Origin: a virus
IMG/VR virus record: IMGVR_UViG_3300042371_001161
Location: 1-64,000 of that record
DNA: 64,000 nt
Reading direction: 5' to 3' (one strand)
The notes under the pieces: generated by a model
Seen by the model: the letters and a program-made list of their open reading frames with translations, nothing else
Databases searched by the model: none
What the model was told of the DNA's origin: nothing
Shown: in pieces, positions 5,193-22,998 of the stretch
Layout of the letters: the number at the start of each line of letters is the position of its first letter
Position numbering within the stretch: position 1 is the first letter of the stretch
Position numbers and translations under genes: made by a program

Positions 5193-5194
5193 GG

Positions 5195-6289
5195 CTAAAT
5201 ATTGTCCTTGATGAACTTCATCGTTGCGTCCCAGTCATCACCACGAGCATCCATGGAAAAATCTTTTGCAATCTCGTAATTTTTGTCAGCTTCGTTTCGT
5301 CTCGCGGTGACGTCAATTAGTTGGTCTAAATGGTGCATCCATTCGTCTTTTGTGTTTGCAATTCGACCTACTCCCTTGTCTGCTAAATATTGATATTCGG
5401 GAGAATATGAAGAAACAAAGGGAATGCCGGCCGCCACATACTCAAGACCCTTGATGAAGGATTTTGCGTGATTGAATTCAATATTATTCAAAGGAACAAT
5501 TCCAATATCAATTTGTTTAAATAAATTGGGGTATTGGTAAATTGGGGCCATGGATGTAATTTTAGAATACTTTTCATCAATTCCTAAAAGCTCATGTGCC
5601 AGCGGCGCACTTGGGTTGTGTCCAGAATGTTGAAAAAAAAGTTTTCTGCTTTGAATGTATTTGCCCATAAACTTATTGAGCTGCTCAAGGTCGTTGGAGC
5701 GCCAATGAGTTGCTCCGACCCATCCGATACGAGGACGTTTGTTAACTGTTATTTGCTTTCGCGTCCATCGATGAAGGTCGATGCCGTTGCGCACCATGAA
5801 AACATTGTTGCGTTTTTTGCTGTAATATTCAAACAGGAACGGTGTTGACGTGATTATGGCGTCGGCAGCCATAATTATCTGTGCGTATATCTCTCTATTT
5901 GAATCTGGGTTAGTTTTTGGGTCAGTTGCCGCATAAGCCCTATTCGATTCCGACAGCCCGTCGTGCCAATCGTCAACATCTACGACGATTTTTTGCCCCA
6001 TTGCTTGAGCCTTAAATACTGATTCGAGTACTTCTTTCTGCATTAAAAGCTTCAGGACAATAATGTCCCATCCGTGGACAGACCGACCGTCTTCTGTGAG
6101 CATCCCAAATCCGCGTTGTTCGTTATATCCCGGGAATCCAACAGCACTAAACCACCCTCTTTTGTTCAGTTCATCAGAAGGGAGCTTACACCTGTACCAT
6201 GCGCACCCATTCGGCTGTAGAGGGTCTGTGCCCCAACACCAATCATGGGTGAGGAATGCAATCGTTGGTTTTTGGGTTCGGCGTTTCAT
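5195..6289 (-). CDS. GT-B (family 4-like) glycosyltransferase
   Basis: IVVDVDD, DAIITST, RNGID, RIGWVG, DIGIVPL...KSFIKGLEYVAAGIPFVSS. Confidence 0.85.
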   Translation of the reverse strand: MKRRTQKPTIAFLTHDWCWGTDPLQPNGCAWYRCKLPSDELNKRGWFSAVGFPGYNEQRGFGMLTEDGRSVHGWDIIVLKLLMQKEVLESVFKAQAMGQKIVVDVDDWHDGLSESNRAYAATDPKTNPDSNREIYAQIIMAADAIITSTPFLFEYYSKKRNNVFMVRNGIDLHRWTRKQITVNKRPRIGWVGATHWRSNDLEQLNKFMGKYIQSRKLFFQHSGHNPSAPLAHELLGIDEKYSKITSMAPIYQYPNLFKQIDIGIVPLNNIEFNHAKSFIKGLEYVAAGIPFVSSYSPEYQYLADKGVGRIANTKDEWMHHLDQLIDVTARRNEADKNYEIAKDFSMDARGDDWDATMKFIKDNI

Positions 6290-7227: not shown

Positions 7228-8832
7228 ATGGCTCAGAAGTTTCTTACAAATATTGACCTCAATAAAAATGCGGTAGTTAACGCCAGTTTTGAGGTCCTTA
7301 CTACCGACCCCTCAACCGAGCTTTTTGATGGCCGGATGTACTTCAATAGTGTCGATGGCGTCATTAAAATCTATGATTCAACTGCCGCTGCGTGGCGAAA
7401 AGTCGTTGCTGGCATTGGTGCGGCTGCTGGCGTAATAGCCGCGGGCACTCACGCCACAGCCCTAACGATAAGTGATTCCGGTGGGCAAATTTCAATTACC
7501 CCAAATCTTGCAACTTCTGCAAGTGCTGGTCTTTTCTCTGCAACGGATTTCACCAAACTTGCCGACGCTACCGCAGATGCAACTGCATCCAAGTTGGTTA
7601 TGCGTGATGCAAGCGGTCAGGCTAAAATCGCCACCCCTACAGATGCAGCACATATTGCCACCAAGGGGTATGTTGATGCCGCCCGTCAGGGCTTGGACGT
7701 AAAGCAATCGGTCAGAGTTGCCTCTGCTACTCCAGTAGCAATCGCCAACGGTCTTGAAGCCGGCGACACAATTGATGGAGTGACGCTTGCCGAGGGCGAC
7801 CGAGTCCTTCTTATGGGCCAAACCTCTGCATCAGAGAACGGAATTTATGTTGCCGTCGCTTCTGGTGCTGCTTCTCGCTCGTCTGACGCAAATGGTACGG
7901 CCGATACCGGCGAGCTCAAGCCAGGAACATTCACTTTCGTTGAAGAAGGTACTGACAACTCCGACAAGGGATTTGTTATCTCGACTAACGGAACCATCAC
8001 TGTCGGCTCTACTGCTATTGCTTTCACGCAGTTCTCCGGCGCAGGCTCGTTTACAGCAGGTAATGGTCTTTCCCAGAGCGGAAACACAATCAATGTCAAC
8101 GTCACCTCTAACAGAACAGCAATTACCGAAGATGCGATTGACATTTCAGCCAACTATGTTGGTCAGTCTTCAATCACGACACTTGGCATAATTGGTACAG
8201 GAACGTGGCAAGGCAATGTCATTGCTGGTCAGTACGGTGGTACTGGAGTAGCCAACACCGGCAAAACCATCACTTTGGGTGGAAACCTCACCACCTCTGG
8301 AGCACACGCTACTACGCTCACCACGACCGGCACTACGGGCGTAACTCTACCCACAACGGGAACCCTCTCTACCTTAGATGGTACTGAGACCCTTACCAAC
8401 AAAACGCTCACTGCTCCAGCATTGGGAACGCCTGTATCGGGAGTTCTCACTAACGCAACTGGACTCCCATTAACAACTGGCGTTACTGGAACGCTTCCTA
8501 TTGCCAATGGTGGTACTAACGCAACGACCGTAGCAGATGCCCGAGCGAACCTTGGCATCAAGACATCCGCTGGTGCCGCATCCACAACCACTTCAGCGCT
8601 TGCTCGAATTGCCGCCCAACCTTGTGCTGCAACAGTAGAAGGCAACCCAGCTTCGGTTACGACCGTCGAACACAAGTTCAATACAAAGAATGTTATTGTT
8701 CAGGTTTTTCAAGTGTCTACTGGTGAAACAGTCAACTGTGATGTCGTTCGTTCCACCGATGATGCAGTCGTGGTAACAATTAACGGAACCTCTATCACCC
8801 TGGACGAGTTCCGTATTGTCGTAACAGGCTAA
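7228..8832 (+). CDS. Tail fibre-like protein
   Basis: ATKGYVD...[10 protein letters not shown] motif, TLTNKTL and LPIANGGT fibre motifs, Thr/Gly/Ala-rich. Confidence 0.75.
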
Positions 8833-9087: not shown

Positions 9088-12113
<3,026 letters not shown>

Positions 12114-12114
<1 letters not shown>

Positions 12115-12482
12115 TGCCCTTGACACAGAAAAGACTTGTCGGACCAGCAGCATTTGCTACGTCTGCAGCAGATATATACACCGTGCCATATAATGCTGGA
12201 TACGTAACGACGGTTGTAATTAAAGAAATTATTTTGTGCAACACGTCTGCTTCCGCACAAACAGTAACGCTATATCTAAAGCCATACGGAGTAACTGTAG
12301 CAAGTTCGCACATTTTTATTAACTCGCTAACACTTGCAGCTAACGAAACAGTGACATTGTCAACTTCAATGGTATTAACAAATAATAATAATACTGCCGG
12401 AGATACATATTCAGATAAAATACGAGGACTAGCAAGCGCAGTAACCGTCAACTATATTTTGAATGGATACGAGGAATACTAA
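12114..12482 (+). CDS. Small virion structural protein, hypothetical
   Basis: 122 aa beta-rich ORF overlapping the collagen stop codon; in fibre operon. Confidence 0.65.
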
Positions 12483-12483
12483 A

Positions 12484-13302
12484 ATGGGAAAGTTCATTTT
12501 TACGAATGGAGGTGGTCTGAGCATTGCTTCTGGACCATCAACAACGTCAAAAGCGAACTCCAATTTGACCGGCTTTCTTGACGCACCAGACCCAGTTTAC
12601 GGTTCTGCTGCGCACGGAACGGCAACGCTAAACACAACAACTGGCGCTGCGGGAACGTATTCAGTAGCTGCAACTTCGTTAGGACTCACGTACTCCGCTG
12701 GTCCGCCAATTGTGTTCACCATGACGCAGGACATATTTGCATTTAATTTGATAATTGCAGACAACGTTAGATTAAATCCAGCAGGGTATAGAATTTTTGT
12801 TCAAAATGTTTTAACGCTTGGTGATGGTTCAATCATTGGCCACACCGCAGGATTTTCAACCGATGGTTCCATTAAGCAAGGAGGTGCAGCAGCCAGCGCG
12901 GCATTAGTGCATAGTCTCGGCGGCTCGAGTGCAACGGCTGGAGCAGCTGCACCAACCGCACCTACGGGTGGGACCGACTACTATAAGCAACCTTTTCAAG
13001 CAATCAAGGGCTATTCGATTACGGCAACGTCAACTACTCCGTCACCTCTACGTGGAGGAGCTGGGGGCGCAACGGGAGCGGGCGGCGGAGTAATAATTTT
13101 AGCAGCGCGATATATCGGTCTTTCTAGTGGCACGGCAACTGCATCTATTAAAGCGCCTGGCACTTCTGGCACAGGCGGAGGAGGCGGTGGAGTAATTATT
13201 GTTGTTTCATCCGCTGGAGCTTTGCCTGCCAACGTATCAACAGACGTTACTGGTGGAACTAGCTGCAATGCGGGTACATATATCTATTCGCAGGTAGTAT
13301 AA
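12484..13302 (+). CDS. Glycine-rich structural protein, paralog of 13304-14947
   Basis: ATG at 12484 just after the upstream stop; GYRIFV, GGAGGATGAGGGVIIL and GGGGGGVIIV motifs shared with the next gene. Confidence 0.75.
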   Translation: MGKFIFTNGGGLSIASGPSTTSKANSNLTGFLDAPDPVYGSAAHGTATLNTTTGAAGTYSVAATSLGLTYSAGPPIVFTMTQDIFAFNLIIADNVRLNPAGYRIFVQNVLTLGDGSIIGHTAGFSTDGSIKQGGAAASAALVHSLGGSSATAGAAAPTAPTGGTDYYKQPFQAIKGYSITATSTTPSPLRGGAGGATGAGGGVIILAARYIGLSSGTATASIKAPGTSGTGGGGGGVIIVVSSAGALPANVSTDVTGGTSCNAGTYIYSQVV

Positions 13303-13303
13303 A

Positions 13304-14947
13304 ATGGCGATTAAAAGAACAAACAGACCTATTGTTCAAAGAGAAGGCGGAGACGCCATCTTTGGGGAAGGCACAGACAGCGACGTCACCATAGCTAGTG
13401 GAACTACGACCTTAACCAAGGACATGTACTACAACAACCTGACGGTCAACTCTGGCGCAACGTTGTTTACAAATGGCTTTCGTGTATTTGTGAAAGGAAC
13501 TTTCACAAACAACGGAACAGTCGGGATGCCCACCGCAACTGAACACTCTGTGGCAGACGGCAGCGGCACGATTGCCGGAAGACAGAACGCCCTTAACCCA
13601 GCAAAAGCGTGGGGCACAAGTACAGACCCATTGTCAGTTACAGATATTTATGACCTAGATGATGCAGTATCTGGCTGGTTTATTACTGCCGCTGGAACAA
13701 TTACCAAAATTGGCGGAGGTTCACTAGGTACTGCCGGCGCTGCTGGAACAACTCTTGCAAACCCAGGAGCAGGTGGAGCTGGCAACGCCGGAACCTTCCC
13801 TGGAGCCTCGACGGGGCAAGCCGGTGGCGCGGGAAACGCAGGCAATCCTGGAAACCCCGCAGTTCCTGGTGCTGGCGGCGCGGGTGGTCTTGGCGGCGGA
13901 TTAGTTATTATATTCGCTAAAACAATTGCTGGTTCTGGGACTATAGTAAGTCAAGGACGCGCCGGGTCTGCTGGGAGTTCGCCTACGCCAGGTGCCTCTG
14001 GCAACTTGGGCAACTCGGCGCCCGGCATAACTGGCTACCATACTTCAGGTTCTTACCACCACCCCGCAGGGTCAACAGGGCCAAACCCTGGTGCAGGAAA
14101 CCCACACCCGGCAGGCCATAATCCCCACGTCGCAGGGAACCCGCACCCAGCAGGGCATAATCCTCATTCGCCAGGAAACCCGCACCCGGCTGGGCATAAT
14201 CCACATGTTGCAGGGAATCCCCACCCAGCAGGACATAATCCGCACGTTGCAGGAAACTATCATGGGTCAGGCACGCACACCAGTGCGCACAACCCCAATA
14301 CGCATACTTATTGGTCAAACCACAACGCAACATACAACGGCAACCATGTCCCCGCGCTGCACTTTGCACACGGAAATACTGGCACTGGCGGACTTGCGAA
14401 TCACAATGGGACAGTAAACAAAGGCGGAAATCACAACCCTGGCAGTGGTCACTCGCCTGCGGTCCATAATCCTGGCAATCACAATAGTGGGCACGGCAGC
14501 CACCACCACCCGGCGGGCCATAATCCTCACGTTGCAGGGAACCCGCACCCGGCGGGCCATAATCCTCACGTTGCAGGGAACCCGCACCCAGCAGGGCATA
14601 ACCCCCATGTCCCAGGAAATCCGCATCCGGCAGGGCATAACCCCCATGTCCCAGGAAATCCCCACGCAGCAGGACATAACTCGGGAACGCACCCGCACAC
14701 TGCAGCAACGGTCAACTCTTCAACAGGTGCGGTGACGAGCAATAAAGCTGCCGCCCCCACCAGTACTGCCACCAATGCAAACTACACGGGCGGAACTGGA
14801 GGTTCAGCTGGCACAGCTGGAACAGCTAACCCAGGAGCTCCTGGGGCTACGGGTTCAACTGGTGGAATAGTTGTTGTAGCTAGAAACACTGGCAACGCCG
14901 CAAGTCAAATTGGACATTCGAATTATTCTAAAGTAATAGACATATAA
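13304..14947 (+). CDS. Glycine-rich structural protein with large His/Asn/Pro repeat insertion
   Basis: GFRVFV and GGAGGLGGGLVIIF motifs; GNPHPAGHNPHVA repeats in two blocks. Confidence 0.8.
   Translation: MAIKRTNRPIVQREGGDAIFGEGTDSDVTIASGTTTLTKDMYYNNLTVNSGATLFTNGFRVFVKGTFTNNGTVGMPTATEHSVADGSGTIAGRQNALNPAKAWGTSTDPLSVTDIYDLDDAVSGWFITAAGTITKIGGGSLGTAGAAGTTLANPGAGGAGNAGTFPGASTGQAGGAGNAGNPGNPAVPGAGGAGGLGGGLVIIFAKTIAGSGTIVSQGRAGSAGSSPTPGASGNLGNSAPGITGYHTSGSYHHPAGSTGPNPGAGNPHPAGHNPHVAGNPHPAGHNPHSPGNPHPAGHNPHVAGNPHPAGHNPHVAGNYHGSGTHTSAHNPNTHTYWSNHNATYNGNHVPALHFAHGNTGTGGLANHNGTVNKGGNHNPGSGHSPAVHNPGNHNSGHGSHHHPAGHNPHVAGNPHPAGHNPHVAGNPHPAGHNPHVPGNPHPAGHNPHVPGNPHAAGHNSGTHPHTAATVNSSTGAVTSNKAAAPTSTATNANYTGGTGGSAGTAGTANPGAPGATGSTGGIVVVARNTGNAASQIGHSNYSKVIDI
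14096..14690 (+). repeat. 39-nt coding repeats, GNPHPAGHNPH(V/S)(A/P), in two blocks of about 4-5 units
   Basis: Blocks at about 14096-14260 and 14505-14690; synonymous positions vary while the peptide is conserved. Confidence 0.88.
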
Positions 14948-15009
14948 CATAGCTTGATAAGCAATGCAAAAAAATGATAACATGGACAAAACTACAATAA
15001 GGAGTGGAA

Positions 15010-15258
15010 ATGGCTTTATTTGATTCATTAACTAAAGAAATGAAATTGCAAGCAATAGAGATGCGAATCATGTCCCTAACTACGCAACTTTACGGTCTTT
15101 TAATTGCCGTAGGACTTGACCCAGAAGAAGTAAATCTAGATACTTTAAATCCTGAAACCGACCTCGATGAAAGATACTTGGGTTATGCCTCGGAAATTGT
15201 TCTGCTCAAAGGACAAATTAGTCATGCAGAAGAAATGCGCGAGAGAGTTGCTGCGTGA
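15010..15258 (+). CDS. Small helical protein, paralog family A/B/C
   Basis: AAGGAG RBS 5 nt before ATG 15010; LYGLLIAVGLDPEE motif. Confidence 0.7.
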   Translation: MALFDSLTKEMKLQAIEMRIMSLTTQLYGLLIAVGLDPEEVNLDTLNPETDLDERYLGYASEIVLLKGQISHAEEMRERVAA

Positions 15259-15845
15259 AAAAAACAGAACGAGCTATTGGCATCATCGAGTACAGTGATG
15301 TTTTTGATGCCGAAAAGTTCATTCCCATGCTCGAGCAAGAATGTAGCCAAGCCTGGGGATATTTGCATTGGGAAAGGTCAACCGTAGGCGACGGCTTCGT
15401 CGCGCCCATAAGAACATCTATGAGCTGCGAACTAAGTCCTCTAGGTGTTGAAGACATAGCCGTAGAGAGAGTGATTCCTCTTGCAAAATCATGGCTAAAC
15501 CTCTGGAAGGATATAGACCCAACTGTCTGGGACTACCGTAGTCAATTTGAATTAGACCTTGAAACCGACGAAGGTTACAGGGTTCTTAAATACGGCGGTG
15601 GGGCGGGATACAAAGCTCATCACGACCACTTTCGTAGCAACTCAAGAAGTATTAGTCTGGTGGCTTTTTTGAACGATGGATATAGTGGAGGCGAGCTAGT
15701 ATTCCCGCGTTTTGATGTGACAATTACACCCAAGGCTGGAAGTCTAGTAATATTTCCTTCCAATTTTCCGTACATACATATAGCTCAGCCTGTTGGAAAA
15801 GATGATGAAACAATCAAATACTCTTTGGTGACGTGGTTTAGATGA
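15255..15845 (+). CDS. 2OG-Fe(II) oxygenase, prolyl-4-hydroxylase-like
   Basis: YRVLKY, HHD (HxD), SLVAFLND...GGEL.F, YIH, KYSLVTW. Confidence 0.92.
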   Translation: MKKTERAIGIIEYSDVFDAEKFIPMLEQECSQAWGYLHWERSTVGDGFVAPIRTSMSCELSPLGVEDIAVERVIPLAKSWLNLWKDIDPTVWDYRSQFELDLETDEGYRVLKYGGGAGYKAHHDHFRSNSRSISLVAFLNDGYSGGELVFPRFDVTITPKAGSLVIFPSNFPYIHIAQPVGKDDETIKYSLVTWFR

Positions 15846-16009
15846 ATCCAGAAGAAGTCTACGCAAACATCGAAAACAACGAAGGCTTAGTTTTTGATGC
15901 GCTAGATGGAAGATACAAAATGATTGGGCAAACAGACAGCAAGTGCCCCACATGGATTGATTTGCCAATTCTTTCTGATTTAGAAGAAAAGAAAAAGTAT
16001 GACTTATAA
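15842..16009 (+). CDS. Small hypothetical protein (55 aa), below ORF-track cutoff
   Basis: Manual translation MNPEEVYANIENNEGLVFDALDGRYKMIGQTDSKCPTWIDLPILSDLEEKKKYDL; ATGA overlap upstream and overlap with the next start; fills the operon gap exactly. Confidence 0.6.
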   Translation: MNPEEVYANIENNEGLVFDALDGRYKMIGQTDSKCPTWIDLPILSDLEEKKKYDL

Positions 16010-16268
16010 TCTTGAACAAGATTTTTTATACAATCAAAACAACCTATTCGCCACATTGGAAACAATTGGCTTGGATTGTGAATTAATAGACACCTACACG
16101 TTGGGTCAAGTTTTAGAGCAATGTACGGCAGTGTATGGTTCGTCAGAATACGACAAAAGCTCTGCATCAGAAGGCGAGCGTTACGCATCATTGCGTCGAG
16201 CACAAATAAATGTTCGCAGATTCTGGTATTATTACACGCTTTTGAAATGGAGAATGCAAAATGTTTAA
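15999..16268 (+). CDS. Small helical protein, possible divergent member of paralog family A/B/C
   Basis: LFATLETIGLDCE resembles LYGLLIAVGLDPE. Confidence 0.6.
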   Translation: MTYNLEQDFLYNQNNLFATLETIGLDCELIDTYTLGQVLEQCTAVYGSSEYDKSSASEGERYASLRRAQINVRRFWYYYTLLKWRMQNV

Positions 16269-16983
16269 GCAGAATCCAAATTTATACGATATTAGTTTAC
16301 TAAGTAAGTTATTGAGCAACGCTCCTGGGGCCGACTATAGCGTTCAGGAAATATCTGCCTTTTGTCAAAGTGCCCTATCGGAAGAGTTGGAATCTGGAGT
16401 CGACAGAAGCCGTCAGGCAATTGGATTTTTAACTACTTTAAATTATTTAGAATACTTATCGCCGTCAGATAGCGTTTCACATGACGTGGCCGCTATGCAC
16501 TTTTTGATGGTCGAAATGCTCGTAGCCTTGCTGAAGCCTTCAAAAATATTACTTGCGCCATTTGTCTACAAGGGCCTTGACGCTAATTATCCTCTTTTTG
16601 CAGAGAATGACGTTTCTGAAGTGCACGTAATGAACCTGCCAGTTCTTGATTACATTGAACGCTATTGGGGTATTAATGTTTCTGACGAGCAGACCATTCG
16701 CATGCAGGACATCCAAGATGGCAACTTTGATAATGACTACAACCTTATTGTTACCTACTTGGAAAACTTTTGCCATGACGACCAAATGCTAAACGGCATA
16801 GTGGACCATCTGGCTAGTGGTGGTGCGCTGTTACTAATGGCAACCAATGACCTCGGCAGCCTGTACGTTAATCAGGAAGCCCATCCATACTATCAGCCTC
16901 ACCAGATTATGTCTCAAAGAGAAGATGTGCTAACTTTTCATTTACCTTTTGCACTTGGGTACACATTGGTAATTAAAAAATGA
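16261..16983 (+). CDS. Degenerate class I methyltransferase-fold protein
   Basis: C-terminal DYNLIV...IVDHLASGGALLL resembles methyltransferase motifs IV-VI; no clear GxGxG motif I. Confidence 0.5.
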   Translation: MFKQNPNLYDISLLSKLLSNAPGADYSVQEISAFCQSALSEELESGVDRSRQAIGFLTTLNYLEYLSPSDSVSHDVAAMHFLMVEMLVALLKPSKILLAPFVYKGLDANYPLFAENDVSEVHVMNLPVLDYIERYWGINVSDEQTIRMQDIQDGNFDNDYNLIVTYLENFCHDDQMLNGIVDHLASGGALLLMATNDLGSLYVNQEAHPYYQPHQIMSQREDVLTFHLPFALGYTLVIKK

Positions 16984-18455
16984 ACCAAAAGAAAATAATT
17001 GTTGTTGGTTCAGGTACTGCAGGACTAGTGACTGCATTGATAATTAAATCAGTAATGCCGGCGTACGAAGTAATTATTGTGTCCTCTAGTAAGAGAGGCA
17101 TCATTGGGGTCGGCGAAGGCTCAACCGAGCATTGGCAGTTATTCCAAAACATAGTAGGCATAGATGTTGATGACATGGTGAGAAACGCAGACATCACACA
17201 TAAGTACGGTATCCGTTATGAAAATTGGACCAATCATACCCCTGATTATTTTCATAGCGTAGGAGGTACGGGCTTGCAGAGCAATACTTTTTGGGGAAGC
17301 TATGCTTACGCTTTAGAAAATGATTTACTACTGACTAACACTTTCTCTTGGCGGGGATTAGTCGACAACATGGTAGTTGATAATGGGCCGGACGTACACC
17401 GTGGAACAAATCAGTATCATTTCGACACTTTCAAATTAAATAAATATCTAACAAATATAGCTGCAAGTAAGGGAATTGTATTTATAGACGACGAAGTTGC
17501 AGACGTTTCTGTTGAAAAAAATGGTTTTATTGGTAGTGTCTTTCTGAAAAGCGCACAAAAAGACATTTGTGGTGATTTTTTTATAGACGCAACTGGGTTT
17601 CATAGAGAGATACTAAGCAAGATAGCTGATAAGACTTTTATTTCTTATCGTAAGTTCTTGCCTTGCGACAAGGCCATTGCATTTCCCACGGAGTCAGAAG
17701 AATCTGGGCAAATAAGGCCATATACGAGAGCACGGGCACTCAAGAATGGCTGGATGTGGGAAATACCAACTCAATCTCGTCGTGGCAACGGTTATGTTTT
17801 TGCATCTGATTTCTGCTCACCAGAACAAGCTATTGAGGAAGCTTCAGAAGCGCACGGTTTCCAAGTGGAGCCAGCTAAAGTTGTCGACTTTAATTCTGGA
17901 TATTTTAAGGAAACATGGAAGAATAATTGTGTCGCCGTTGGCTTGGCAGCGGGTTTTGTCGAACCCCTGGAGGCCACTTCTATTTCTACGACTATCCAAC
18001 AGGCAAGATTGATTTGTTCATATTTGCCGACATTCTCAGAAGAGAGAATGTATGGCATTAAAGAATATCATCGTGTAGTCGATTCAATAATGGAAAATAT
18101 TCTATGCATGATTTCTTTGCACTATATGTCCGACAGAACAGATTCAGAAATGTGGAGAGCACAGAGTAAATCAGAAAAGCCAGAGCTTCTGCAACATCTG
18201 TTAAATATTTGGAACGAAAGATGCCCAGAAAGTCACGACGTACCTTTTACTGGATTTGAGCTCTTTACTGCGGCGCACTTGTGGCACGTAGCTCAAGGGC
18301 AGGGCGTCCTGAATAAGCAAGTTGCCAGCATACAGCTTGATGCATATGCGTCAAGAAAAAATACTAGTGAAGACATATCCAACTATTCAAAATCATTACT
18401 CAAGCAAAGGTTGATAGGTCATGCGCAAGCGCTCAAGAACACTCGAAATAGTTAG
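16980..18455 (+). CDS. Flavin-dependent halogenase, tryptophan-halogenase family
   Basis: VVGSGTAG FAD motif, IGVGEGS, THKYGIRYENW with the catalytic Lys equivalent, FFIDATG, GWMWEIP (WxWxIP), GFVEPLEATSI. Confidence 0.92.
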   Translation: MNQKKIIVVGSGTAGLVTALIIKSVMPAYEVIIVSSSKRGIIGVGEGSTEHWQLFQNIVGIDVDDMVRNADITHKYGIRYENWTNHTPDYFHSVGGTGLQSNTFWGSYAYALENDLLLTNTFSWRGLVDNMVVDNGPDVHRGTNQYHFDTFKLNKYLTNIAASKGIVFIDDEVADVSVEKNGFIGSVFLKSAQKDICGDFFIDATGFHREILSKIADKTFISYRKFLPCDKAIAFPTESEESGQIRPYTRARALKNGWMWEIPTQSRRGNGYVFASDFCSPEQAIEEASEAHGFQVEPAKVVDFNSGYFKETWKNNCVAVGLAAGFVEPLEATSISTTIQQARLICSYLPTFSEERMYGIKEYHRVVDSIMENILCMISLHYMSDRTDSEMWRAQSKSEKPELLQHLLNIWNERCPESHDVPFTGFELFTAAHLWHVAQGQGVLNKQVASIQLDAYASRKNTSEDISNYSKSLLKQRLIGHAQALKNTRNS

Positions 18456-19236
18456 TCCAAGAATTTTCAACGACATCCCTAAATTAAAAAAGGGTGAAGT
18501 ATTGTTGGCTCCAGATTCAAGACTTTTAATGGACGACTCGTGTAGACCATACGAAAACTTAGGTAATTGGCCAGAATGGTGGAAGGCACTTAATGGCAAT
18601 GATGCCAGTCTAAAGCGGTGTTCTGGGACGTCAGATTACTTATCAACTGGATTTACAATACCTCTCTGGGCAAAGCTAGAATTTCGCCCTTCATTAGATT
18701 CGCAGAATTGGGATGTAAGATTTGACCTTGCTGGCCACATGGGGAATTTTGGTATTGAAAGTTTTTCATATAATCAAACTGGCAAATGCCCAGTGTCAGA
18801 AATTCGCGCAAGGAAAGAGTCAGGCTACGTAAAAATCGTTAACCCATGGGTGATTAAAACACCTCCAGGTTGGTCGTCACTATTCTTGCCGCCACTATGG
18901 AATCCAAACCCCAACTACACAATTCTGCCTGCAGTGGTCAATACCGATTACTATCACACGGCGAATATCGTAATAAATGTTTTGACTAACGAGCCATTTG
19001 AAATAGAAATAGGAGAACCAATGTGGCATGTTATTCCGTTCCAAAGGAGTAGGTCCAACACTATTGTCTGGGGAGACGAGAGCGCTCATCAACTCTTGCA
19101 TCGAAGAGGTTTTGGTGGAGTCTTCATGCCTCAGAGGCAGAAGAGTAAGTACAAAAAACTGGAACGAGATATTGATGCATCGCTAGATGCCGAAGACCCC
19201 TCAATCTTAGATAAAATTCTAAGACGTAATAGATAG
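18421..19236 (+). CDS. Hypothetical protein of the DUF6065-like family often found beside phage oxygenases
   Basis: PWVIKTPPGWSSLF...ILPAVVNTDYY...GEPMWHVIPF pattern. Confidence 0.55.
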   Translation: MRKRSRTLEIVSPRIFNDIPKLKKGEVLLAPDSRLLMDDSCRPYENLGNWPEWWKALNGNDASLKRCSGTSDYLSTGFTIPLWAKLEFRPSLDSQNWDVRFDLAGHMGNFGIESFSYNQTGKCPVSEIRARKESGYVKIVNPWVIKTPPGWSSLFLPPLWNPNPNYTILPAVVNTDYYHTANIVINVLTNEPFEIEIGEPMWHVIPFQRSRSNTIVWGDESAHQLLHRRGFGGVFMPQRQKSKYKKLERDIDASLDAEDPSILDKILRRNR

Positions 19237-19246
19237 GAAATTTATT

Positions 19247-19486
19247 ATGGAATTCAGCATAACAGTCGCTCAAAAGCAACTAGCCCTTCAGACAGCGCGT
19301 AGACGATTGGAATCAGAGATATACTTACTAGCGTTGCTTTCAGGCATGGACCCCGATACGTTGGAAGTAGTTGATGAAAAGTTTACGTGGCAACCGGATG
19401 CTTCTATGCCAATTTTCGTTGATTCAACACAGAGAAGGCTGAGGAATGTTCTAGACATTTATGAAACCTTATTGGAAAAATTGTAA
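19247..19486 (+). CDS. Small helical protein, paralog family A/B/C
   Basis: Ungapped 36-aa alignment to the 15010 protein with 10 identities (IYLLALLSGMDPD). Confidence 0.7.
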   Translation: MEFSITVAQKQLALQTARRRLESEIYLLALLSGMDPDTLEVVDEKFTWQPDASMPIFVDSTQRRLRNVLDIYETLLEKL

Positions 19487-19494
19487 TACTGGAG

Positions 19495-20184
19495 TTGGTG
19501 ATGAATAGCAAGCCTAGATTTTTCTGGCCATGTGGAAAGTCGTCGGCCATCATGGTTGCCGAATCCATCATTGAAGAAGAACTATGTCAAAGCATAATTA
19601 GTGAGTGCAAAACTCACTACGACAAACTATTCTCTCCAGGTCCAGTCATTAGTGGAATTTTTCCCGATATCAAGTCAAGCATGGATATGAGTTGGTCGGA
19701 CGGAGAAGTAATTAGGCTTGGCGCCCCATCTATGCCATTTCTTAATTATGAAGGTCAGGTAGTAGACGCGTTATTTAGTTCTATTGAATACTACAGAGAA
19801 ACCTTTAGATGGCTATGGGAATGGCCGGGCCTGTCGGATACTGGGTTTAGACTGCAGCATTATCGCAAGAACAGTGGGTTTTATCGAGAGCACATAGACG
19901 GCGGGCCAGGGCCTGGCGTGGCTGCAGACAGAATGCTTGGGGCTATCATCTACCTAAATACAGTGGAAACTGGCGGGGAAACCTATTTCCGCGAGCATGA
20001 CCTAAAAATTCCAGCAAAAGCAGGCTCAATAGCTTTGTTCCCCGCGTATTGGACGCACCCACATCAGGGTTGTGTTCCTATATCCGATGATAAATGGATT
20101 GTAAGTACGTTCGTTGTTAAAAAAACAGAAGAACAAGAAAACACAACAAAGAGCACCCCAATGCCACAGCTTGATAATGAATGA
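19495..20184 (+). CDS. 2OG-Fe(II) oxygenase, prolyl-4-hydroxylase-like
   Basis: FRLQHY, HID, AIIYLN...GGETYF, THPH, KWIVSTF. Confidence 0.92.
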   Translation: MVMNSKPRFFWPCGKSSAIMVAESIIEEELCQSIISECKTHYDKLFSPGPVISGIFPDIKSSMDMSWSDGEVIRLGAPSMPFLNYEGQVVDALFSSIEYYRETFRWLWEWPGLSDTGFRLQHYRKNSGFYREHIDGGPGPGVAADRMLGAIIYLNTVETGGETYFREHDLKIPAKAGSIALFPAYWTHPHQGCVPISDDKWIVSTFVVKKTEEQENTTKSTPMPQLDNE

Positions 20185-20800
20185 ATTTTATGACCACGAA
20201 TCTGGTAGGACGCTGCAAGAAAGACCAGAAGCCTACATTTTAGATAAAGTTTTTGACCCAGAATATTTTTCTGAACTAAAAGAATCGCTCGCGCTAATTA
20301 GAGAAAATAATGTTCTTCCGTATACCTTGGAGCTTGGGCGGAGCGGTATAAATACATTAGATAAGAGCTTTGGAGCCGATGTTCTTAATGGCGCTTTTGA
20401 TAAGGTCGTCGCAACGGCGCGTTCTATTTTTGGTCAAGACGTGAAGCCAACTTATGCCCTATGGGTGGCCTATAGGGGCTTTCGGGCTAGTCTTCCACGT
20501 CATATAGATGATAATGCTTGCACCTATACGATTGACTTATGCATGTCCTATGAGACACAGTGGCCCATTTGTATCGAAGGGAAAGAGCTACTTCTTGAAC
20601 CAAATCAAGCTGCAGTATATTACGGCGAAGACCAGTACCACTGGAGGGGTGAATTCCCTAGCCCGTTAAAAAATGAAGTGCAAATGATTTTTTTCCATTT
20701 TGCTGAGCCAGACCACTGGTTCTTCACTAAGGGTCCGCAGCACAAGCAGGAAATAGTTCGTATAAAAGAAGAACATCAAAGAAGGAACGGTATAAAGTAA
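20177..20800 (+). CDS. 2OG-Fe(II) oxygenase, cyanophage-type subfamily
   Basis: LPRHIDD, CTYTIDLC, WPICIEG, YHWR, QMIFFH; ATG 20177 overlapping the upstream stop. Confidence 0.8.
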   Translation: MNEFYDHESGRTLQERPEAYILDKVFDPEYFSELKESLALIRENNVLPYTLELGRSGINTLDKSFGADVLNGAFDKVVATARSIFGQDVKPTYALWVAYRGFRASLPRHIDDNACTYTIDLCMSYETQWPICIEGKELLLEPNQAAVYYGEDQYHWRGEFPSPLKNEVQMIFFHFAEPDHWFFTKGPQHKQEIVRIKEEHQRRNGIK

Positions 20801-20805
20801 GTTAC

Positions 20806-21102
20806 ATGAGTAAAGTTGTTCAGTTCAGTCAAAAGATAGTCGATGCTGTCAAAATGATGTCCAAGAAAGAATATTGGAATCGTCCCAATGCCGTCGAGGC
20901 GTGGGGTTTTGCAACAAAGATTCTCATTATTTTTCCTGGCCTACTTCTGGGCAAGCAGTGGTGGTGGCTGTACATTTTCGCCATTATTTCGAGTACGGCG
21001 CTAATTTGGTCATCTACTAAGAAAACACTGCCGACTATTATTCTATTCAACGTTGCCTGGGTCATCTTAGCAACTGCTTCGATTGTGAAGCATTTCGTAT
21101 GA
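20806..21102 (+). CDS. Small membrane protein (about 3 TM)
   Basis: 98 aa with three hydrophobic stretches. Confidence 0.65.
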   Translation: MSKVVQFSQKIVDAVKMMSKKEYWNRPNAVEAWGFATKILIIFPGLLLGKQWWWLYIFAIISSTALIWSSTKKTLPTIILFNVAWVILATASIVKHFV

Positions 21103-21716
21103 GACTACACACGCAATATTCATACAACGAAGAGTTCTCCAAAAAACTTGCTTTTGAATTTACTGTTGTAGGTTCAGATAAATCATCACATCATGGGTAC
21201 GAGGATGTGTATTCACACCTGTTGTCCGGTATGTCTCCGAAATCCTTTTTGGAGATTGGTCTTTTTCTTGGAGAGACTCGCAGTACTGACCTCTTTGCTT
21301 GGGAGCAGATGTTTCCTGACGCAAAAATTTATGGAGCAGACATAAAGTCTCACCTACTTTTCAAGAGTGGGAATATTCAGACATTCTTTGTTGACCAGTC
21401 GCGACCGGAAACTTTCTTGGACTTAAAGAACTCGATTGGCAACAAGGTTGACATCATTCTGGACGACGCTTCGCATGTTTTTGATTTGACAATTTCCACA
21501 TTTGAAAACATGTTTGATTTCCTTGAAGATGATGGCATTTATCTCATAGAGGATATCCTTTACGAGAACTACAACATGGATAGTTGGGAACAGCGCTCAT
21601 CTGAATTGAAAGAATATTTTGACAAAACTGGCCTTTCTTACGACATGTATGCAACATCAAAAATTCATTCCTGTGTAGATAGTGTTGTTTTGGCGGTATC
21701 AAAGGAGAAACAATGA
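21099..21716 (+). CDS. SAM-dependent O-methyltransferase-like protein
   Basis: FLEIG, IYGADI, VDQS, DIILDDASH, LEDDGIYLIED pattern of sugar O-methyltransferases. Confidence 0.85.
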   Translation: MRLHTQYSYNEEFSKKLAFEFTVVGSDKSSHHGYEDVYSHLLSGMSPKSFLEIGLFLGETRSTDLFAWEQMFPDAKIYGADIKSHLLFKSGNIQTFFVDQSRPETFLDLKNSIGNKVDIILDDASHVFDLTISTFENMFDFLEDDGIYLIEDILYENYNMDSWEQRSSELKEYFDKTGLSYDMYATSKIHSCVDSVVLAVSKEKQ

Positions 21717-22771
21717 GATTCCATGTTGTGGGCCTCCCGCATACAAACACCACTGAAGATTTTACGGCTTGCGCATATACAGAGAAAGTCCGTAAGTTCT
21801 GCATCATGATGAAAGACCTTGGGCATACGGTCTTTTTGTATGGTGGCGAGTTCAACGAAGCCCCCTGTGACGAGCAGGTAATGTGCATTACTGAGGAACA
21901 GCGATTAAAAGCCGTGGGCAACAATCACTACTCCGCCGCATCGTTTGATTGGAACCTACCCCATTGGGTCGAGTTCAATAACAATGTCATTAAAGGCATT
22001 CATGAGCGCCTAGAGCACAAAGATTTTATTTGCCTTATCGCAGGCTATGCCTCTAAGCCAATTGCTGACGCATTCCCCAATGAACTAAGCGTGGAATTCG
22101 GAATAGGTTACGGTGGTTCATTCTCTGAATACAAAGTTTTTGAATCATATGCGTGGATGCACGCTTGCTATGGTTCCAAGGTCACCGACCCACATACATT
22201 GGATGGCAAGTTTTATCACGCCGTAATACCGAGTTATATCGATATTCAAGATTTCCCATTACAAAACGAACCAGACGACTACTATCTTTACATTGGGCGT
22301 CTCACAGAACGCAAGGGTTACATGATAGCTGCAGAGGTCTGCGAATATCTTGGCAAGCGCCTGATTATTGCAGGGCAGGGCACACCACCTAGGTACGGAG
22401 AATACGTCGGGGTAGTAGGAACGGAGGAACGAGCCAAGCTGATGGGTGGAGCAATTGCCACTTTTGCGCCAACTATTTATGTTGAGCCTTTTGGAACCGT
22501 TGCCATAGAAGCAATGGCCTGTGGTTCTCCAGTTATTTCCACCGACTGGGGTGCTTTCACCGAGACAGTTCTTGATGGATTGACAGGATTTAGATGTCAC
22601 ACAATGCAGGAATTCGCGGATGCTACCGAGAAAGTCAAGACTCTTGATAGGTCACTAATCAGCGCTTACGCAAAGGGGCGTTATGGACTGGACACTGTCG
22701 GGCTCATGTACGAAAAGTATTTTACTCGTTTGCAGGGTCTTTGGGGCAAGGGCTTTTACGAACTTTCGTAA
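21713..22771 (+). CDS. GT-B family 4 glycosyltransferase
   Basis: YLYIGRLTERKG, EPFGTVAIEAMACGSPVISTDWGAFTETV. Confidence 0.92.
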   Translation: MRFHVVGLPHTNTTEDFTACAYTEKVRKFCIMMKDLGHTVFLYGGEFNEAPCDEQVMCITEEQRLKAVGNNHYSAASFDWNLPHWVEFNNNVIKGIHERLEHKDFICLIAGYASKPIADAFPNELSVEFGIGYGGSFSEYKVFESYAWMHACYGSKVTDPHTLDGKFYHAVIPSYIDIQDFPLQNEPDDYYLYIGRLTERKGYMIAAEVCEYLGKRLIIAGQGTPPRYGEYVGVVGTEERAKLMGGAIATFAPTIYVEPFGTVAIEAMACGSPVISTDWGAFTETVLDGLTGFRCHTMQEFADATEKVKTLDRSLISAYAKGRYGLDTVGLMYEKYFTRLQGLWGKGFYELS

Positions 22772-22779
22772 TCTACGAA

Positions 22780-22998
22780 TTACCACTTATCTATTGGGCA
22801 AGATGCATCAAGAAGTTTGACTTTAAGATGCATGAAACACCCACATTTTGCGCATTGTTTTGATATGGAGATGAACATTGGGCATTCAACACATATTGCA
22901 TATCGCTCATCTTGCATGGCCTTGTCGGCATGAGCGGTGCCCTTACGGAAAAAATCTAAAGGGCTTGATTTTCTGTTTTGTCCAGTATTGTCTCGCAT
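22780..22998 (-). CDS. Small Cys-rich protein (DUF6171-like)
   Basis: CVECP...QCAKCGCF...CPIDKW. Confidence 0.7.
   Translation of the reverse strand: MRDNTGQNRKSSPLDFFRKGTAHADKAMQDERYAICVECPMFISISKQCAKCGCFMHLKVKLLDASCPIDKW

What the first reader, a model, noticed from the sequence alone, without database searches (positions are those of the whole stretch)
15010..22771. Candidate virion-protein tailoring cassette: three 2OG oxygenases, halogenase, DUF6065-like protein, two methyltransferase-like proteins and a GT4
Seen: a tightly coupled operon wedged between two fibre clusters, with no DNA-metabolism genes in it. Known: T4-like cyanophages carry multiple 2OG-Fe(II) oxygenases and tryptophan-halogenase homologues near tail-fibre genes, with natural substrates largely unknown. 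Inference: a stepwise hydroxylate, glycosylate, O-methylate and halogenate pathway for post-translational decoration of fibres. Here the putative substrates (His/Pro repeats, G-X-T collagen) are encoded right beside the enzymes, which makes the idea testable.
Basis: partly seen in the sequence, partly recalled or inferred. Interest (0 to 1): 0.8.

Follow-up and report, generated by a model that had tools for sequence, protein, structure and literature searches.

The report
Phage fibre-loop tailoring enzyme module
An uncultured lake phage keeps a halogenase, protein-hydroxylase-type oxygenases and an odd dUTPase-shaped partner next to a fibre-like protein with a long histidine-rich loop. The enzymes probably decorate that loop chemically, which would be a new kind of virus-particle chemistry, but no modification has been measured.

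Summary
The gene cluster is real and tightly coupled. Confirmed here are two P4H-type 2OG oxygenases, an apparently intact flavin-dependent halogenase, a GT4 and one sugar-O-methyltransferase-like gene. The "third 2OG" (only a conserved HxD...H...R) and the "second methyltransferase" are unverified. The "DUF6065-like" protein has a dUTPase-superfamily fold but lacks the catalytic Asp.

The conserved unit is not the 12 listed genes. In 57 of 57 relatives fetched through the upstream Gly-rich gene, with at least 7 kb of downstream DNA, g12, one 2OG oxygenase, the halogenase and the dUTPase-fold protein are all present. The methyltransferase (3/57) and GT4 (8/57) are accessories.

g12-type proteins always carry a low-complexity loop. 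It is His-rich where a halogenase is present. It is Tyr-rich in a halogenase-less sister lineage that keeps the oxygenases. It is absent in distant homologues that have none of the enzymes. On a tree this is one gain or loss each, so it is a clade-level pattern and not a statistic.

Best reading (about 0.5): post-translational tailoring of the g12 loop, and perhaps of the collagen fibre. Main rival: a halogenated sugar or amino-acid metabolite, or glycan decoration (Iyer et al. 2021).

Earlier notes of this scan on this genome had flagged the His-rich pair, the small paralogues and the halogenase. None had tested neighbourhoods.

The parts
9103..12114 (+). g09, a collagen-like fibre protein of 1003 aa made of G-X-T triplets. 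It is a possible secondary substrate.
   Evidence: Pfam Collagen E 1.8e-93 with 9 stretches. A homologue lies in 36 of 57 related loci within the fetched range.
12114..12482 (+). g10, a 122-aa protein of unknown function that travels with the module
   Evidence: No Pfam or PHROG hit. Present in 53 of 57 g11-fetched loci, and also beside c06-family genes and collagen genes in other lineages.
12463..13302 (+). g11, a Gly-rich beta-solenoid protein. It is the paralogue of g12 without the loop insert.
   Evidence: AF2 model has pLDDT 75. The fold is a beta-helix, like TPS and autotransporter adhesins, at Z about 6 only. The best viral matches are giant-virus collagen-domain proteins (E 6e-11). There is no hit in GenBank phages.
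13304..14947 (+). g12, a beta-solenoid protein carrying a roughly 270-aa His/Asn/Pro/Gly low-complexity loop. It is the proposed main substrate.
   Evidence: Sequence read. All homologues carry such an insert. Pooled insert composition is His 20%, Gly 16%, Asn 10%, Pro 10%. Enriched motifs are HPAG (38 seen, 1.8 expected) and HNAG (29 seen, 1.9 expected).
15010..15258 (+). c01, a small helical protein and paralogue of c07. It precedes 2OG oxygenase a.
   Evidence: hhalign of the c01 family against the c07 family gives 94%, E 1e-7. The ATG at 15010 fits the homologues' starts.
15255..15845 (+). c02, the P4H-type 2OG-Fe(II) oxygenase a (core member)
   Evidence: PF13640 E 3.4e-15. Bacillus anthracis P4H 3itq at 2e-8. 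Present in 57/57 loci.
15999..16268 (+). c03, a small 89-aa protein, possibly a distant relative of c01 and c07
   Evidence: hhalign gives only 30% and 9%. Present in 16 of 57 loci.
16261..16983 (+). c04, a 240-aa protein. It is methyltransferase-like by a weak lead only.
   Evidence: Atlas feature score 0.90 to O-methyltransferase clusters. No Pfam, NCBIfam or PDB hit. Present in 16 of 57 loci.
16980..18455 (+). c05, the flavin-dependent halogenase (core member)
   Evidence: PF04820 E 5.6e-100. Thirty solved halogenases match, including MibH and VirX1. Present in 57/57 loci. No flavin reductase was found in the 119.7-kb record.
18421..19236 (+). c06, a dUTPase-fold partner protein (core member). 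It is probably not a dUTPase.
   Evidence: AF2 pLDDT 82. VIA Z 9.8, and all eight chains at Z of 8 or more are dUTPases. Pfam dUTPase hits 6 of 25 relatives. Motif III aligns but reads VNTDYYH. A c06-family ORF follows directly after 67 of 112 distinct halogenase ORFs.
19247..19486 (+). c07, a small helical protein and paralogue of c01. It precedes 2OG oxygenase b.
19501..20184 (+). c08, the P4H-type 2OG-Fe(II) oxygenase b
   Evidence: PF13640 E 9.5e-10. hhalign to c02 gives 99.7%. Present in 38 of 57 loci.
20177..20800 (+). c09, a probable metal-dependent DSBH-like enzyme. It belongs to the family that cyanophage papers call 'ferrochelatase-domain'.
   Evidence: Invariant HxD...H..R. PHROG 2954 E 3.6e-13. 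Not detectably related to c02 or c08. Present in 26 of 57 loci.
20806..21102 (+). c10, a 98-aa membrane protein that is very strongly conserved
   Evidence: 57-90% identity even where the neighbouring genes are at 35-45%. At least 1194 unnamed homologues. Present in 43 of 57 loci.
21099..21716 (+). c11, a SAM methyltransferase-like protein of the sugar-O-methyltransferase type (accessory)
   Evidence: Present in only 3 of 57 loci, always together with the GT4.
21713..22771 (+). c12, a GT4 glycosyltransferase (accessory)
   Evidence: Present in 8 of 57 loci. It is 41% identical to Synechococcus phage ACG-2014f gp018, which sits between a collagen protein and a tail fibre next to a 2OG oxygenase.
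22780..22998 (-). d01, a Cys-rich DUF6171 protein convergent on the cassette
   Evidence: PF19668 E 1.5e-7. It recurs beside c06-family and 2OG genes in other lineages.

Best explanation
The cassette is the variable end of a conserved late-gene module. The invariant core is three fibre-operon genes (g10, g11, g12), one prolyl-hydroxylase-type 2OG oxygenase, a flavin-dependent halogenase and a dUTPase-fold protein directly behind the halogenase.

The most likely job of the enzymes is post-translational tailoring of the long low-complexity loop that g12 displays from an adhesin-like beta-solenoid scaffold.
- The 2OG oxygenases would hydroxylate Pro and/or Asn in the recurrent H-P-(A/S)-G and H-N-A-G motifs.
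- The halogenase, using host-made reduced flavin, would halogenate an electron-rich side chain of the loop. Histidine is the only abundant candidate.
- The dUTPase-fold protein has lost the catalytic Asp. It would act as a partner or adaptor of the oxidative enzyme rather than as a nucleotidase.
- In this phage an added GT4 and sugar-O-methyltransferase pair would put a methylated sugar on the same protein or on the neighbouring collagen fibre.

Shown: gene families, motifs, folds, gene order and co-occurrence. Inferred: that g12 is in the virion, that it is the substrate, and every chemical step.
For: 1. Linkage. 57 of 57 loci fetched through g11, with at least 7 kb of downstream DNA, hold g12, 2OGa, the halogenase and c06. 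Accessory genes vary. Gene order is kept down to about 35-45% protein identity.
2. Every g12 homologue carries a His/Asn/Gly/Pro insert. The insert keeps its composition and short motifs, but not its sequence.
3. Three-way pattern among 97-99 distinct g12-type ORFs. With a halogenase, the maximum His count per 60 residues has a median of 19. The halogenase-less lineage has 3-4 oxygenases and 2-3 c06 copies and a Tyr-rich insert (median Tyr 15, His at most 10). Twelve distant N-domain homologues without any aromatic insert have no oxygenase, c06 or halogenase nearby.
4. The oxygenases fall in PF13640, and their best solved relatives are protein prolyl hydroxylases.
5. Partly independent recurrences. 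A phage with an HK97-type capsid has fibre, Gly_rich_2 protein, 2OG-like gene, halogenase and Asp/Asn hydroxylase in a row. Cyanophage ACG-2014f has collagen, GT4, 2OG and tail fibre in a row.
6. The g11 fold matches giant-virus collagen-domain proteins and adhesin beta-helices.
7. Precedents from papers. Flavin-dependent halogenases act on ribosomal peptides and proteins (PMC10286304, PMC10858898). Mimivirus L230 hydroxylates collagen (PMC5802723, PMC9546862). GT and O-methyltransferase genes sit inside the structural operon of mycobacteriophage Corndog (PMC4351075).
8. Pfam found no carrier-protein, NRPS/PKS, carbamoyltransferase or amino-acid-activating family in the cassette.
Against: - No modified residue has been seen, and there is no proteomic evidence that g12 is a virion protein.
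- On a tree of the g12 N-domain, halogenase presence changes once and enzyme presence changes once. That leaves only one independent contrast each, so the pattern could be inherited synteny.
- I know of no flavin-dependent halogenase that acts on histidine.
- The halogenase's closest solved relatives act on free tryptophan.
- c06 has a nucleotide-binding fold.
- The methyltransferase resembles small-molecule sugar O-methyltransferases.
- A divergent glycan operon with a HAD-nucleotidyltransferase fusion lies just upstream.
- The Gly-rich neighbour of the HK97-type lineage's halogenase is only mildly His-bearing.
- More distant halogenase homologues (33-40% identity) have no His-rich neighbour.
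Confidence: 0.5

Rival explanations
1. The enzymes build or decorate a small molecule or a glycan. [quoted passage not shown] Iyer, Anantharaman, Krishnan, Burroughs and Aravind (2021) predicted this for a cyanophage cluster of halogenase, 2OG oxygenases, cupin-like enzymes, HAD phosphatases and O-methyltransferases.
For: - The published prediction itself (PMC7824862, read).
- The halogenase's nearest solved relatives use free tryptophan.
- The methyltransferase is nearest to the macrolide sugar O-methyltransferases MycE and TylE.
- A GT4 is present.
- The upstream divergent operon holds a HAD+NTP-transferase fusion, a methyltransferase and a GT.
- c06 has a nucleotide-binding fold that could hold a nucleotide-sugar.
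- A conserved small membrane protein is present that could move a substrate.
Against: - The carbamoyltransferase and HemK-like genes that form the core of the published cluster were not found in the cassette.
- The sugar genes are the least conserved part: methyltransferase 3/57 and GT4 8/57.
- The invariant partners of the enzymes are the two Gly-rich proteins, not sugar genes.
- The oxygenases belong to a family of protein hydroxylases.
Confidence: 0.2
2. The association is inherited gene order only. The enzymes act on host proteins or metabolism as take-over functions, for example hydroxylating a translation factor as bacterial PPHD does, or consuming 2-oxoglutarate as proposed for cyanophages. 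They merely sit in a permissive gap of the late operon.
For: - There is only one independent evolutionary contrast for each association.
- In HTVC008M and S-H38, 2OG oxygenases and the halogenase sit among head, packaging or unknown genes, not next to fibres.
- Pseudomonas PPHD (4iw3) is among the solved relatives.
- Sullivan et al. proposed a 2OG and nitrogen-stress role (PMC3037559).
Against: - The gap is kept filled with the same four genes while neighbouring accessory genes turn over.
- The loop's composition tracks which enzymes are present.
- Similar pairings recur in an HK97-type phage and in a T4-like cyanophage.
Confidence: 0.17
3. The halogenase and the dUTPase-fold protein act on a nucleotide or on DNA, giving a modified base.
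For: - c06 is a dUTPase-superfamily protein.
- No canonical dUTPase was found in the record.
- A ParB/PAPS-reductase-type module lies elsewhere in the window.
Against: - The residue that aligns with the dUTPase motif III catalytic Asp is Asn or His, and the motif IV Arg/Gln is not kept. The position of the catalytic residue comes from my own knowledge of E. coli Dut D90.
- The genes lie in the late structural operon, with no polymerase, kinase or base-transfer gene beside them.
- c06-family copies also follow 2OG-like enzymes in lineages that have no halogenase.
- The record is only about 71% complete, so the missing dUTPase means little.
Confidence: 0.05

Closest known systems
2OG-Fe(II) oxygenase and tryptophan-halogenase genes of T4-like cyanophages and pelagiphage HTVC008M. 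VirX1 is the characterised viral halogenase.
   Same: The enzyme families are the same. The halogenase is 30-35% identical to cyanophage homologues and matches VirX1 (6qgm) at 1.4e-39. The enzymes come in several copies inside structural regions. The natural substrate is unknown (PMC3037559, PMC10452541).
   Different: The phage here is not T4-like. Its terminase is nearest to those of Gordonia and Methanothermobacter phages at 43% identity. The halogenase is locked to a His-rich beta-solenoid protein and a dUTPase-fold partner. These partners did not turn up beside the halogenase homologues at 33-40% identity or in the two cultured phages I inspected (S-H38 and HTVC008M).
Predicted halogenated amino-acid and sugar metabolite cluster of jumbo cyanophages (S-SSM6a; Iyer et al. 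2021, PMC7824862)
   Same: Halogenase, 2OG oxygenases, a cupin/DSBH-like gene, O-methyltransferases and sugar-handling genes lie together.
   Different: Pfam found no carbamoyltransferase or HemK-like methylase here. The invariant neighbours are structural-type Gly-rich proteins. I did not compare the two clusters gene by gene.
Virion glycosylation of mycobacteriophages (Corndog, Che8: GT and O-methyltransferase genes; PMC4351075; Freeman et al. 2023 as cited in PMC12619734)
   Same: A GT and O-methyltransferase pair is embedded in a structural operon, and phage proteins are the presumed acceptors.
   Different: Here the GT and methyltransferase pair is an accessory. The core chemistry is oxidative (hydroxylase plus halogenase). 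Glycosylation has not been shown.
Viral collagen modification: Mimivirus L230 lysyl hydroxylase/glucosyltransferase (PMC5802723, PMC9546862). From my own knowledge, also the PBCV-1 prolyl 4-hydroxylase.
   Same: A virus encodes both collagen-like proteins and 2OG hydroxylases and GTs. The g11 fold recurs in giant-virus collagen-domain proteins.
   Different: The oxygenases here are of the small P4H type, not a lysyl hydroxylase. The closest genomic partner is a non-collagen low-complexity loop. A halogenase is added.
Peptide- and protein-modifying flavin-dependent halogenases of RiPP pathways (SrpI, MibH, ChlH; PMC10286304, PMC10858898, 10.1101/2025.01.12.632611)
   Same: This is a precedent that this enzyme family can halogenate residues in ribosomal polypeptides, guided by disordered or leader regions. 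MibH (5uao) matches at 1.3e-46.
   Different: The known cases target Trp in short peptides. Here the candidate is a 547-aa protein whose loop is rich in His and poor in Trp (one homologue has no Trp at all).
Gly/His-rich hardened animal biomaterials with halogenated residues (Nereis jaw proteins). This is an analogy from my own knowledge and was not checked here.
   Same: A Gly- and His-rich low-complexity protein is associated with halogenation.
   Different: There is no homology, the organism and scale are different, and it is purely a functional analogy.

Membership tests
Flavin-dependent halogenase (Pfam Trp_halogenase PF04820) | Whole-protein score above the curated cut-off | tested here: met
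   335.8 bits against a cut-off of 21, covering profile positions 1-450 of 458.
Flavin-dependent halogenase (Pfam Trp_halogenase PF04820) | FAD-binding GxGxxG motif and the halogenase-specific WxWxIP motif | tested here: met
   GSGTAG near the N-terminus and GWMWEIP were read in the translation.
Flavin-dependent halogenase (Pfam Trp_halogenase PF04820) | Catalytic Lys and Glu (PrnA K79 and E346) | tested here: inconclusive
   THKYGIRY and VEPLE lie at the expected places. No residue-level alignment to PrnA was printed, and the numbering comes from memory.
Flavin-dependent halogenase (Pfam Trp_halogenase PF04820) | Free-tryptophan binding module of PrnA and RebH | tested here: inconclusive
   Alignments to PrnA and RebH stop at query residues 395-410 of 491, so the substrate-binding end is not covered.
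Flavin-dependent halogenase (Pfam Trp_halogenase PF04820) | Halogenating activity and the identity of the substrate | not testable with these tools
   This needs an enzyme assay.
P4H-type 2OG-Fe(II) oxygenase (PF13640) | Score above the cut-off and an HxD...H iron triad | tested here: met
   c02 scores 57.2 bits and c08 39.7 bits against a cut-off of 27. H122 and D124 are invariant across the three aligned proteins and a C-terminal His is readable in c02 and c08. Prolyl 4-hydroxylases are the top solved hits.
P4H-type 2OG-Fe(II) oxygenase (PF13640) | Membership of the third candidate (c09, 20177-20800) | tested here: not met
   No Pfam hit at E up to 5. hhalign to the c02 and c08 families gives 0.2% and 34% over N-terminal stretches only. 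No PDB profile hit. It does keep an invariant HxD...H..R, so it may be another metal-dependent fold.
dUTPase (PF00692) | dUTPase-like beta-barrel fold | tested here: met
   VIA Z 9.8, rmsd 3.1 over 119 residues. All eight chains at Z of 8 or more are dUTPases, and unrelated rows fall below 4.5. Foldseek E 2e-4.
dUTPase (PF00692) | Sequence score for the window's own protein | tested here: not met
   The window protein has no PF00692 hit. Six of 25 relatives do, with a best E of 1.1e-6.
dUTPase (PF00692) | Catalytic Asp of motif III and Arg/Gln of motif IV | tested here: not met
   The profile alignment places VNTDYYH against G(V/I)(I/V)D.DY. The first Asp is Asn or His in this subfamily, and 'RIAQ' is replaced. 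The wider family keeps GIIDTD. Which Asp is catalytic comes from my own knowledge.
DUF6065 (PF19541) | Score above the cut-off | tested here: not met
   16.4 bits against a cut-off of 26.6. This shows a distant relationship only.
GT4 glycosyltransferase (PF00534) | Score above the cut-off | tested here: met
   60.7 bits against a cut-off of 26.4. PHROG 3408 at 1.9e-83 over the full length.
Class I SAM methyltransferase | Family score for c11 and for c04 | tested here: inconclusive
   c11 scores 22.6 bits for Methyltransf_31, below the cut-off of 27, but has PHROG 6.7e-13 and PDB 8ia9 at 5e-8. c04 has no hit in Pfam, NCBIfam or PDB and only an Atlas score of 0.90.
Phage virion-protein modification system (as in mycobacteriophage glycosylation) | Modifying enzymes encoded inside the structural operon next to candidate acceptors | tested here: met
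Phage virion-protein modification system (as in mycobacteriophage glycosylation) | Modified residues detected on virion proteins | not testable with these tools
   There is no isolate and no proteome.
Cyanophage halogenated-metabolite cluster (Iyer et al. 2021) | Carbamoyltransferases and a HemK-like methylase as the core | tested here: not met
   Pfam found no such family in any cassette ORF.

The most novel reading that the evidence does not exclude
These lake and marine phages display a long low-complexity aromatic loop (His-rich or Tyr-rich) on an adhesin-like beta-solenoid. They rebuild it chemically with their own hydroxylases and, in one clade, a halogenase that acts on protein-bound histidine. 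A widespread dUTPase-fold family (over 2,500 sequence clusters) serves as a new kind of adaptor subunit for these tailoring enzymes. This would be the first halogenated virus structural protein and a new substrate class for flavin-dependent halogenases.
Probability: 0.2. Interest if true: 0.9.

Novelty: new variant of a known kind. Interest (0 to 1): 0.65.

Why it matters
The natural role of the many 2OG oxygenases and halogenases in aquatic phages has been open since the first cyanophage genomes. This module gives a concrete, cloneable hypothesis: one named protein loop as the substrate, one oxygenase, one halogenase and one partner protein. If it holds, it would show that phages chemically harden, functionalise or metal-load their host-contact organs. 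It would extend enzymatic halogenation to folded proteins and possibly to histidine. It would also give a function to a large family of dUTPase-shaped proteins of unknown role. If the metabolite rival is right instead, these abundant lake phages make halogenated compounds during infection, which also matters for freshwater chemistry.

Tried and rejected
- **Nucleotide search.** The cassette had no match in GenBank phages. g11 and the g12 N-domain had essentially none either. There is therefore no cultured relative to lean on.
- **g11 and Pfam Gly_rich_2.** A profile comparison with the Gly_rich_2 protein of the HK97-type lineage found only a 15-column GGGGGVI match. I do not call them homologous.
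- **c09 as a 2OG oxygenase.** hhalign and a PDB profile search failed.
- **c04 as a methyltransferase.** A PDB profile search failed.
- **Three small ORFs as one family.** This holds only for c01 and c07. c03 is not supported.
- **Promoter and terminator scans.** Both were at chance level (25 sites against 24.7 expected, and 16 against 16.9). The operon claim rests on gene spacing only.
- **Statistical test of halogenase against His-rich loop.** Only one independent pair exists, so no test is possible.
- **His-rich neighbours of distant halogenases.** None were found, apart from an unrelated small secreted His-rich ORF in S-H38.
- **Contexts of distant c06 relatives by exact look-up.** I used the search for related loci instead.
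- **c06-like gene in haloarchaeal virus HF2.** It lies between tail genes and ribonucleotide reductase, which is not informative.
- **NCBIfam.** It gave nothing beyond weak general flavoprotein hits.

Full report
**Setting**

The window is the first 64 kb of a 119.7-kb linear IMG/VR virus record, estimated at about 71% complete. It encodes a tail sheath, a large terminase and a portal, so it is a contractile-tailed phage. The terminase is only about 43% identical to any GenBank phage. Nucleotide searches with the cassette found nothing. The phage is uncultured and its host is unknown.

**The observation**

Twelve ORFs run on the + strand from 15010 to 22771. Neighbours overlap by 4-35 nt or are separated by 5-14 nt, and there is one gap of 153 nt. 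Promoter and terminator scans were at chance level, so coupling rests on spacing alone.

Securely identified:
- Two P4H-type 2OG-Fe(II) oxygenases, c02 and c08. Both exceed the PF13640 cut-off and have HxD...H. Prolyl 4-hydroxylases are their best solved relatives, and they are homologous to each other.
- A flavin-dependent halogenase (E 5.6e-100). The FAD motif and the WxWxIP motif are readable.
- A GT4.

Weaker or refined:
- The methyltransferase c11 is likely. It has a PHROG hit and matches MycE/TylE-type sugar O-methyltransferases, but its Pfam hit is below cut-off.
It belongs to the family that cyanophage papers list as "hypothetical with ferrochelatase domain".
- The second methyltransferase (c04) rests on a language-model lead only.
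- Of the three small ORFs, c01 and c07 are true paralogues. Each stands directly before one of the two homologous oxygenases, so a two-gene unit was duplicated. c03 is not supported as a member.

**The "DUF6065-like" protein**

The Pfam hit is sub-threshold. An alignment of 25 homologues gave an AlphaFold model with pLDDT 82.
- All eight solved chains at Z of 8 or more are dUTPases, with a top Z of 9.8. Unrelated folds score below 4.5.
- Foldseek agrees.
- Six of the 25 homologues hit Pfam dUTPase directly, with a best E of 1.1e-6.
- A profile search aligns motifs III to V with solved dUTPases.

The position that holds the catalytic Asp in E. coli Dut is Asn or His here (VNTDYYH), and the motif IV Arg/Gln is not kept. 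Which Asp is catalytic comes from my own knowledge. c06 is therefore a dUTPase-fold protein that is probably not a dUTPase. The wider family is large: 2,532 cluster representatives at E below 1e-3. That wider family still has GIIDTD at motif III.

**Neighbourhoods**

Loci fetched with the halogenase showed a fixed order: fibre-like g07, collagen g09, g10, g11, g12, 2OGa, halogenase, c06. A variable tail follows.

To avoid circularity I fetched loci with the upstream Gly-rich gene g11 instead. Among the 57 with at least 7 kb downstream, the counts were:

| Gene | Loci (of 57) |
|---|---|
| g12 | 57 |
| 2OGa (c02) | 57 |
| halogenase (c05) | 57 |
| c06 | 57 |
| g10 | 53 |
| c10 | 43 |
| c08 | 38 |
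| collagen g09 | 36 |
| c09 | 26 |
| small ORFs (c01, c03, c07) | 13-19 |
| GT4 (c12) | 8 |
| methyltransferase (c11) | 3 |

The conserved unit is therefore g10-g11-g12 plus 2OGa, halogenase and c06. The glycosyltransferase and methyltransferase are accessories. A c06-family ORF follows directly after 67 of 112 distinct halogenase ORFs. In other lineages one follows 24 of 43 c09-type ORFs.

**The candidate substrate**

g11 and g12 are paralogues with a beta-solenoid architecture.
- The g11 model matches adhesin beta-helices only at the level of general architecture, at Z about 6.
- Among viral models it matches giant-virus collagen-domain proteins (E 6e-11, TM 0.56).

g12 differs from g11 by a large insert placed between two GGGxVII-type rungs that are contiguous in g11.
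- Every g12 homologue has such an insert.
- The inserts are not alignable but share composition: His 20%, Gly 16%, Ala 11%, Asn 10%, Pro 10%.
- Short motifs are far over-represented against shuffles: HPAG 38 seen against 1.8 expected, HNAG 29 against 1.9, PHPA 30 against 1.2, HPSG 17 against 1.2.

**A natural comparison**

A sister lineage found through the c06 family has g10, a g12-type and a g11-type protein, three to four oxygenases, a methyltransferase-like gene, two to three c06 copies and a ferredoxin. It has no halogenase. Its insert is Tyr/Asn/Gly/Ser-rich rather than His-rich.

Among 97 distinct g12-type ORFs with enough flank:
- 55 with a halogenase have a median of 19 His in the richest 60 residues (range 9-30) and few Tyr.
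- About 30 with oxygenases and c06 but no halogenase have a median of about 15 Tyr and at most 10 His.
- 12 distant homologues of the N-domain have no aromatic insert and have no oxygenase, c06 or halogenase nearby.

This is what substrate-enzyme coupling predicts. However, on a tree of the N-domain (99 rows) halogenase presence changes once and enzyme presence changes once. There is one independent contrast each and no statistical weight.

Partly independent support comes from two other phages.
- An HK97-capsid phage has a CBM-bearing fibre, a Gly_rich_2 protein, a 2OG-like gene, a 54%-identical halogenase, a sulfotransferase-like gene, an Asp/Asn hydroxylase and c10 in a row. Its Gly-rich protein is only mildly His-bearing.
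- Cultured cyanophage ACG-2014f has a GT4 (41% identical) and a 2OG oxygenase between a collagen protein and a tail fibre.

**Weighing**

The main reading is post-translational tailoring of the g12 loop and possibly of the collagen fibre. It fits the linkage, the protein-hydroxylase family of the oxygenases, the loop motifs and the published precedents. Those precedents are RiPP halogenases acting on peptides and proteins (PMC10286304, PMC10858898), Mimivirus collagen hydroxylation (PMC5802723, PMC9546862), and GT and O-methyltransferase genes in the Corndog structural operon (PMC4351075).

Against it:
- No modification and no virion proteome exist.
- I know of no halogenase that acts on histidine.
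- One core member has a nucleotide-binding fold.
- The sugar genes resemble small-molecule tailoring enzymes.

[quoted passage not shown] Here the carbamoyltransferase and HemK-like core of that cluster were not found, and the sugar genes are the least conserved part. A glycan operon does lie just upstream. The halogenase must rely on a host flavin reductase, since none was found in the record.

**Verdict**

The finding is real and more interesting in its refined form than as listed. It is a conserved six-gene module that links a loop-bearing, adhesin-like protein to a hydroxylase, a halogenase and a dUTPase-fold partner. I searched full text for halogenase with tail fibre and histidine-rich terms, for cyanophage halogenase with 2OG terms, and for DUF6065. 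None of these turned up a description of such a module. The mechanism remains an inference at roughly even odds.

Noticed in passing
window 20806-21102 (+): A 98-aa protein with hydrophobic segments suggesting about three membrane helices is far better conserved (57-90% identity) than its neighbours (35-45%). It also sits beside the halogenase in an unrelated HK97-type phage. At least 1,194 unnamed homologues exist in metagenomes. Its role is unknown; transport of a substrate or halide, a holin-like function or exclusion are all possible.
   Followed up: partly
window 1194-6289 (-): A divergent operon next to the fibre operon encodes a HAD hydrolase fused to a sugar-phosphate nucleotidyltransferase, a class I methyltransferase and a GT. 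This is a likely nucleotide-sugar or glycan pathway that could feed the GT4 of the cassette. It co-occurs with the module in several relatives (L117, L143, L161).
   Followed up: partly
L002 (Synechococcus phage S-H38, MW117965.1) about 14820-15107 (+): In a gap between annotated genes, about 4 kb downstream of the halogenase, lies an unannotated small ORF with a signal-peptide-like start and a very His-rich tail (25 His in 60 residues).
   Followed up: no
L002 and L003; PHROGs 274, 2297, 2954, 3531: Database names look wrong for these families. P4H-type oxygenases match PHROGs called 'DNA endonuclease' and 'DNA endonuclease V', and c09-type proteins match PHROGs called 'ferrochelatase'. The two 'DNA endonuclease V' genes flanking the S-H38 halogenase may be such oxygenases; I did not check them. 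In PHROG 3531, c09 matches the front of the profile and c02 the back, so fused forms may exist.
   Followed up: partly
window 22780-22998 (-): A Cys-rich DUF6171 protein of 72 aa, convergent on the cassette, recurs next to c06-family and 2OG genes in other phage lineages (E down to 1e-18).
   Followed up: partly
L226:7729-7992 (+): In the halogenase-less sister lineage, a small ferredoxin-like gene (my reading of its Cys pattern; no family search was run) directly follows the last c06-family gene. That suggests a phage-supplied electron donor for the oxidative enzymes there.
   Followed up: no
window 7228-7260 and 9103-9135 (+): The fibre-like g07 and the collagen protein g09 begin with nearly the same peptide (MAQKF[LV]T). 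That suggests they dock to the same site on the particle.
   Followed up: no
L324 (Halorubrum phage HF2) 5824-6708: Haloarchaeal myoviruses (HF1, HF2 and the HRTV and HCTV groups) carry a distant c06-family gene (E about 1e-4) at the border between the tail-gene block and the ribonucleotide reductase gene. The dUTPase-fold family therefore reaches archaeal viruses.
   Followed up: partly
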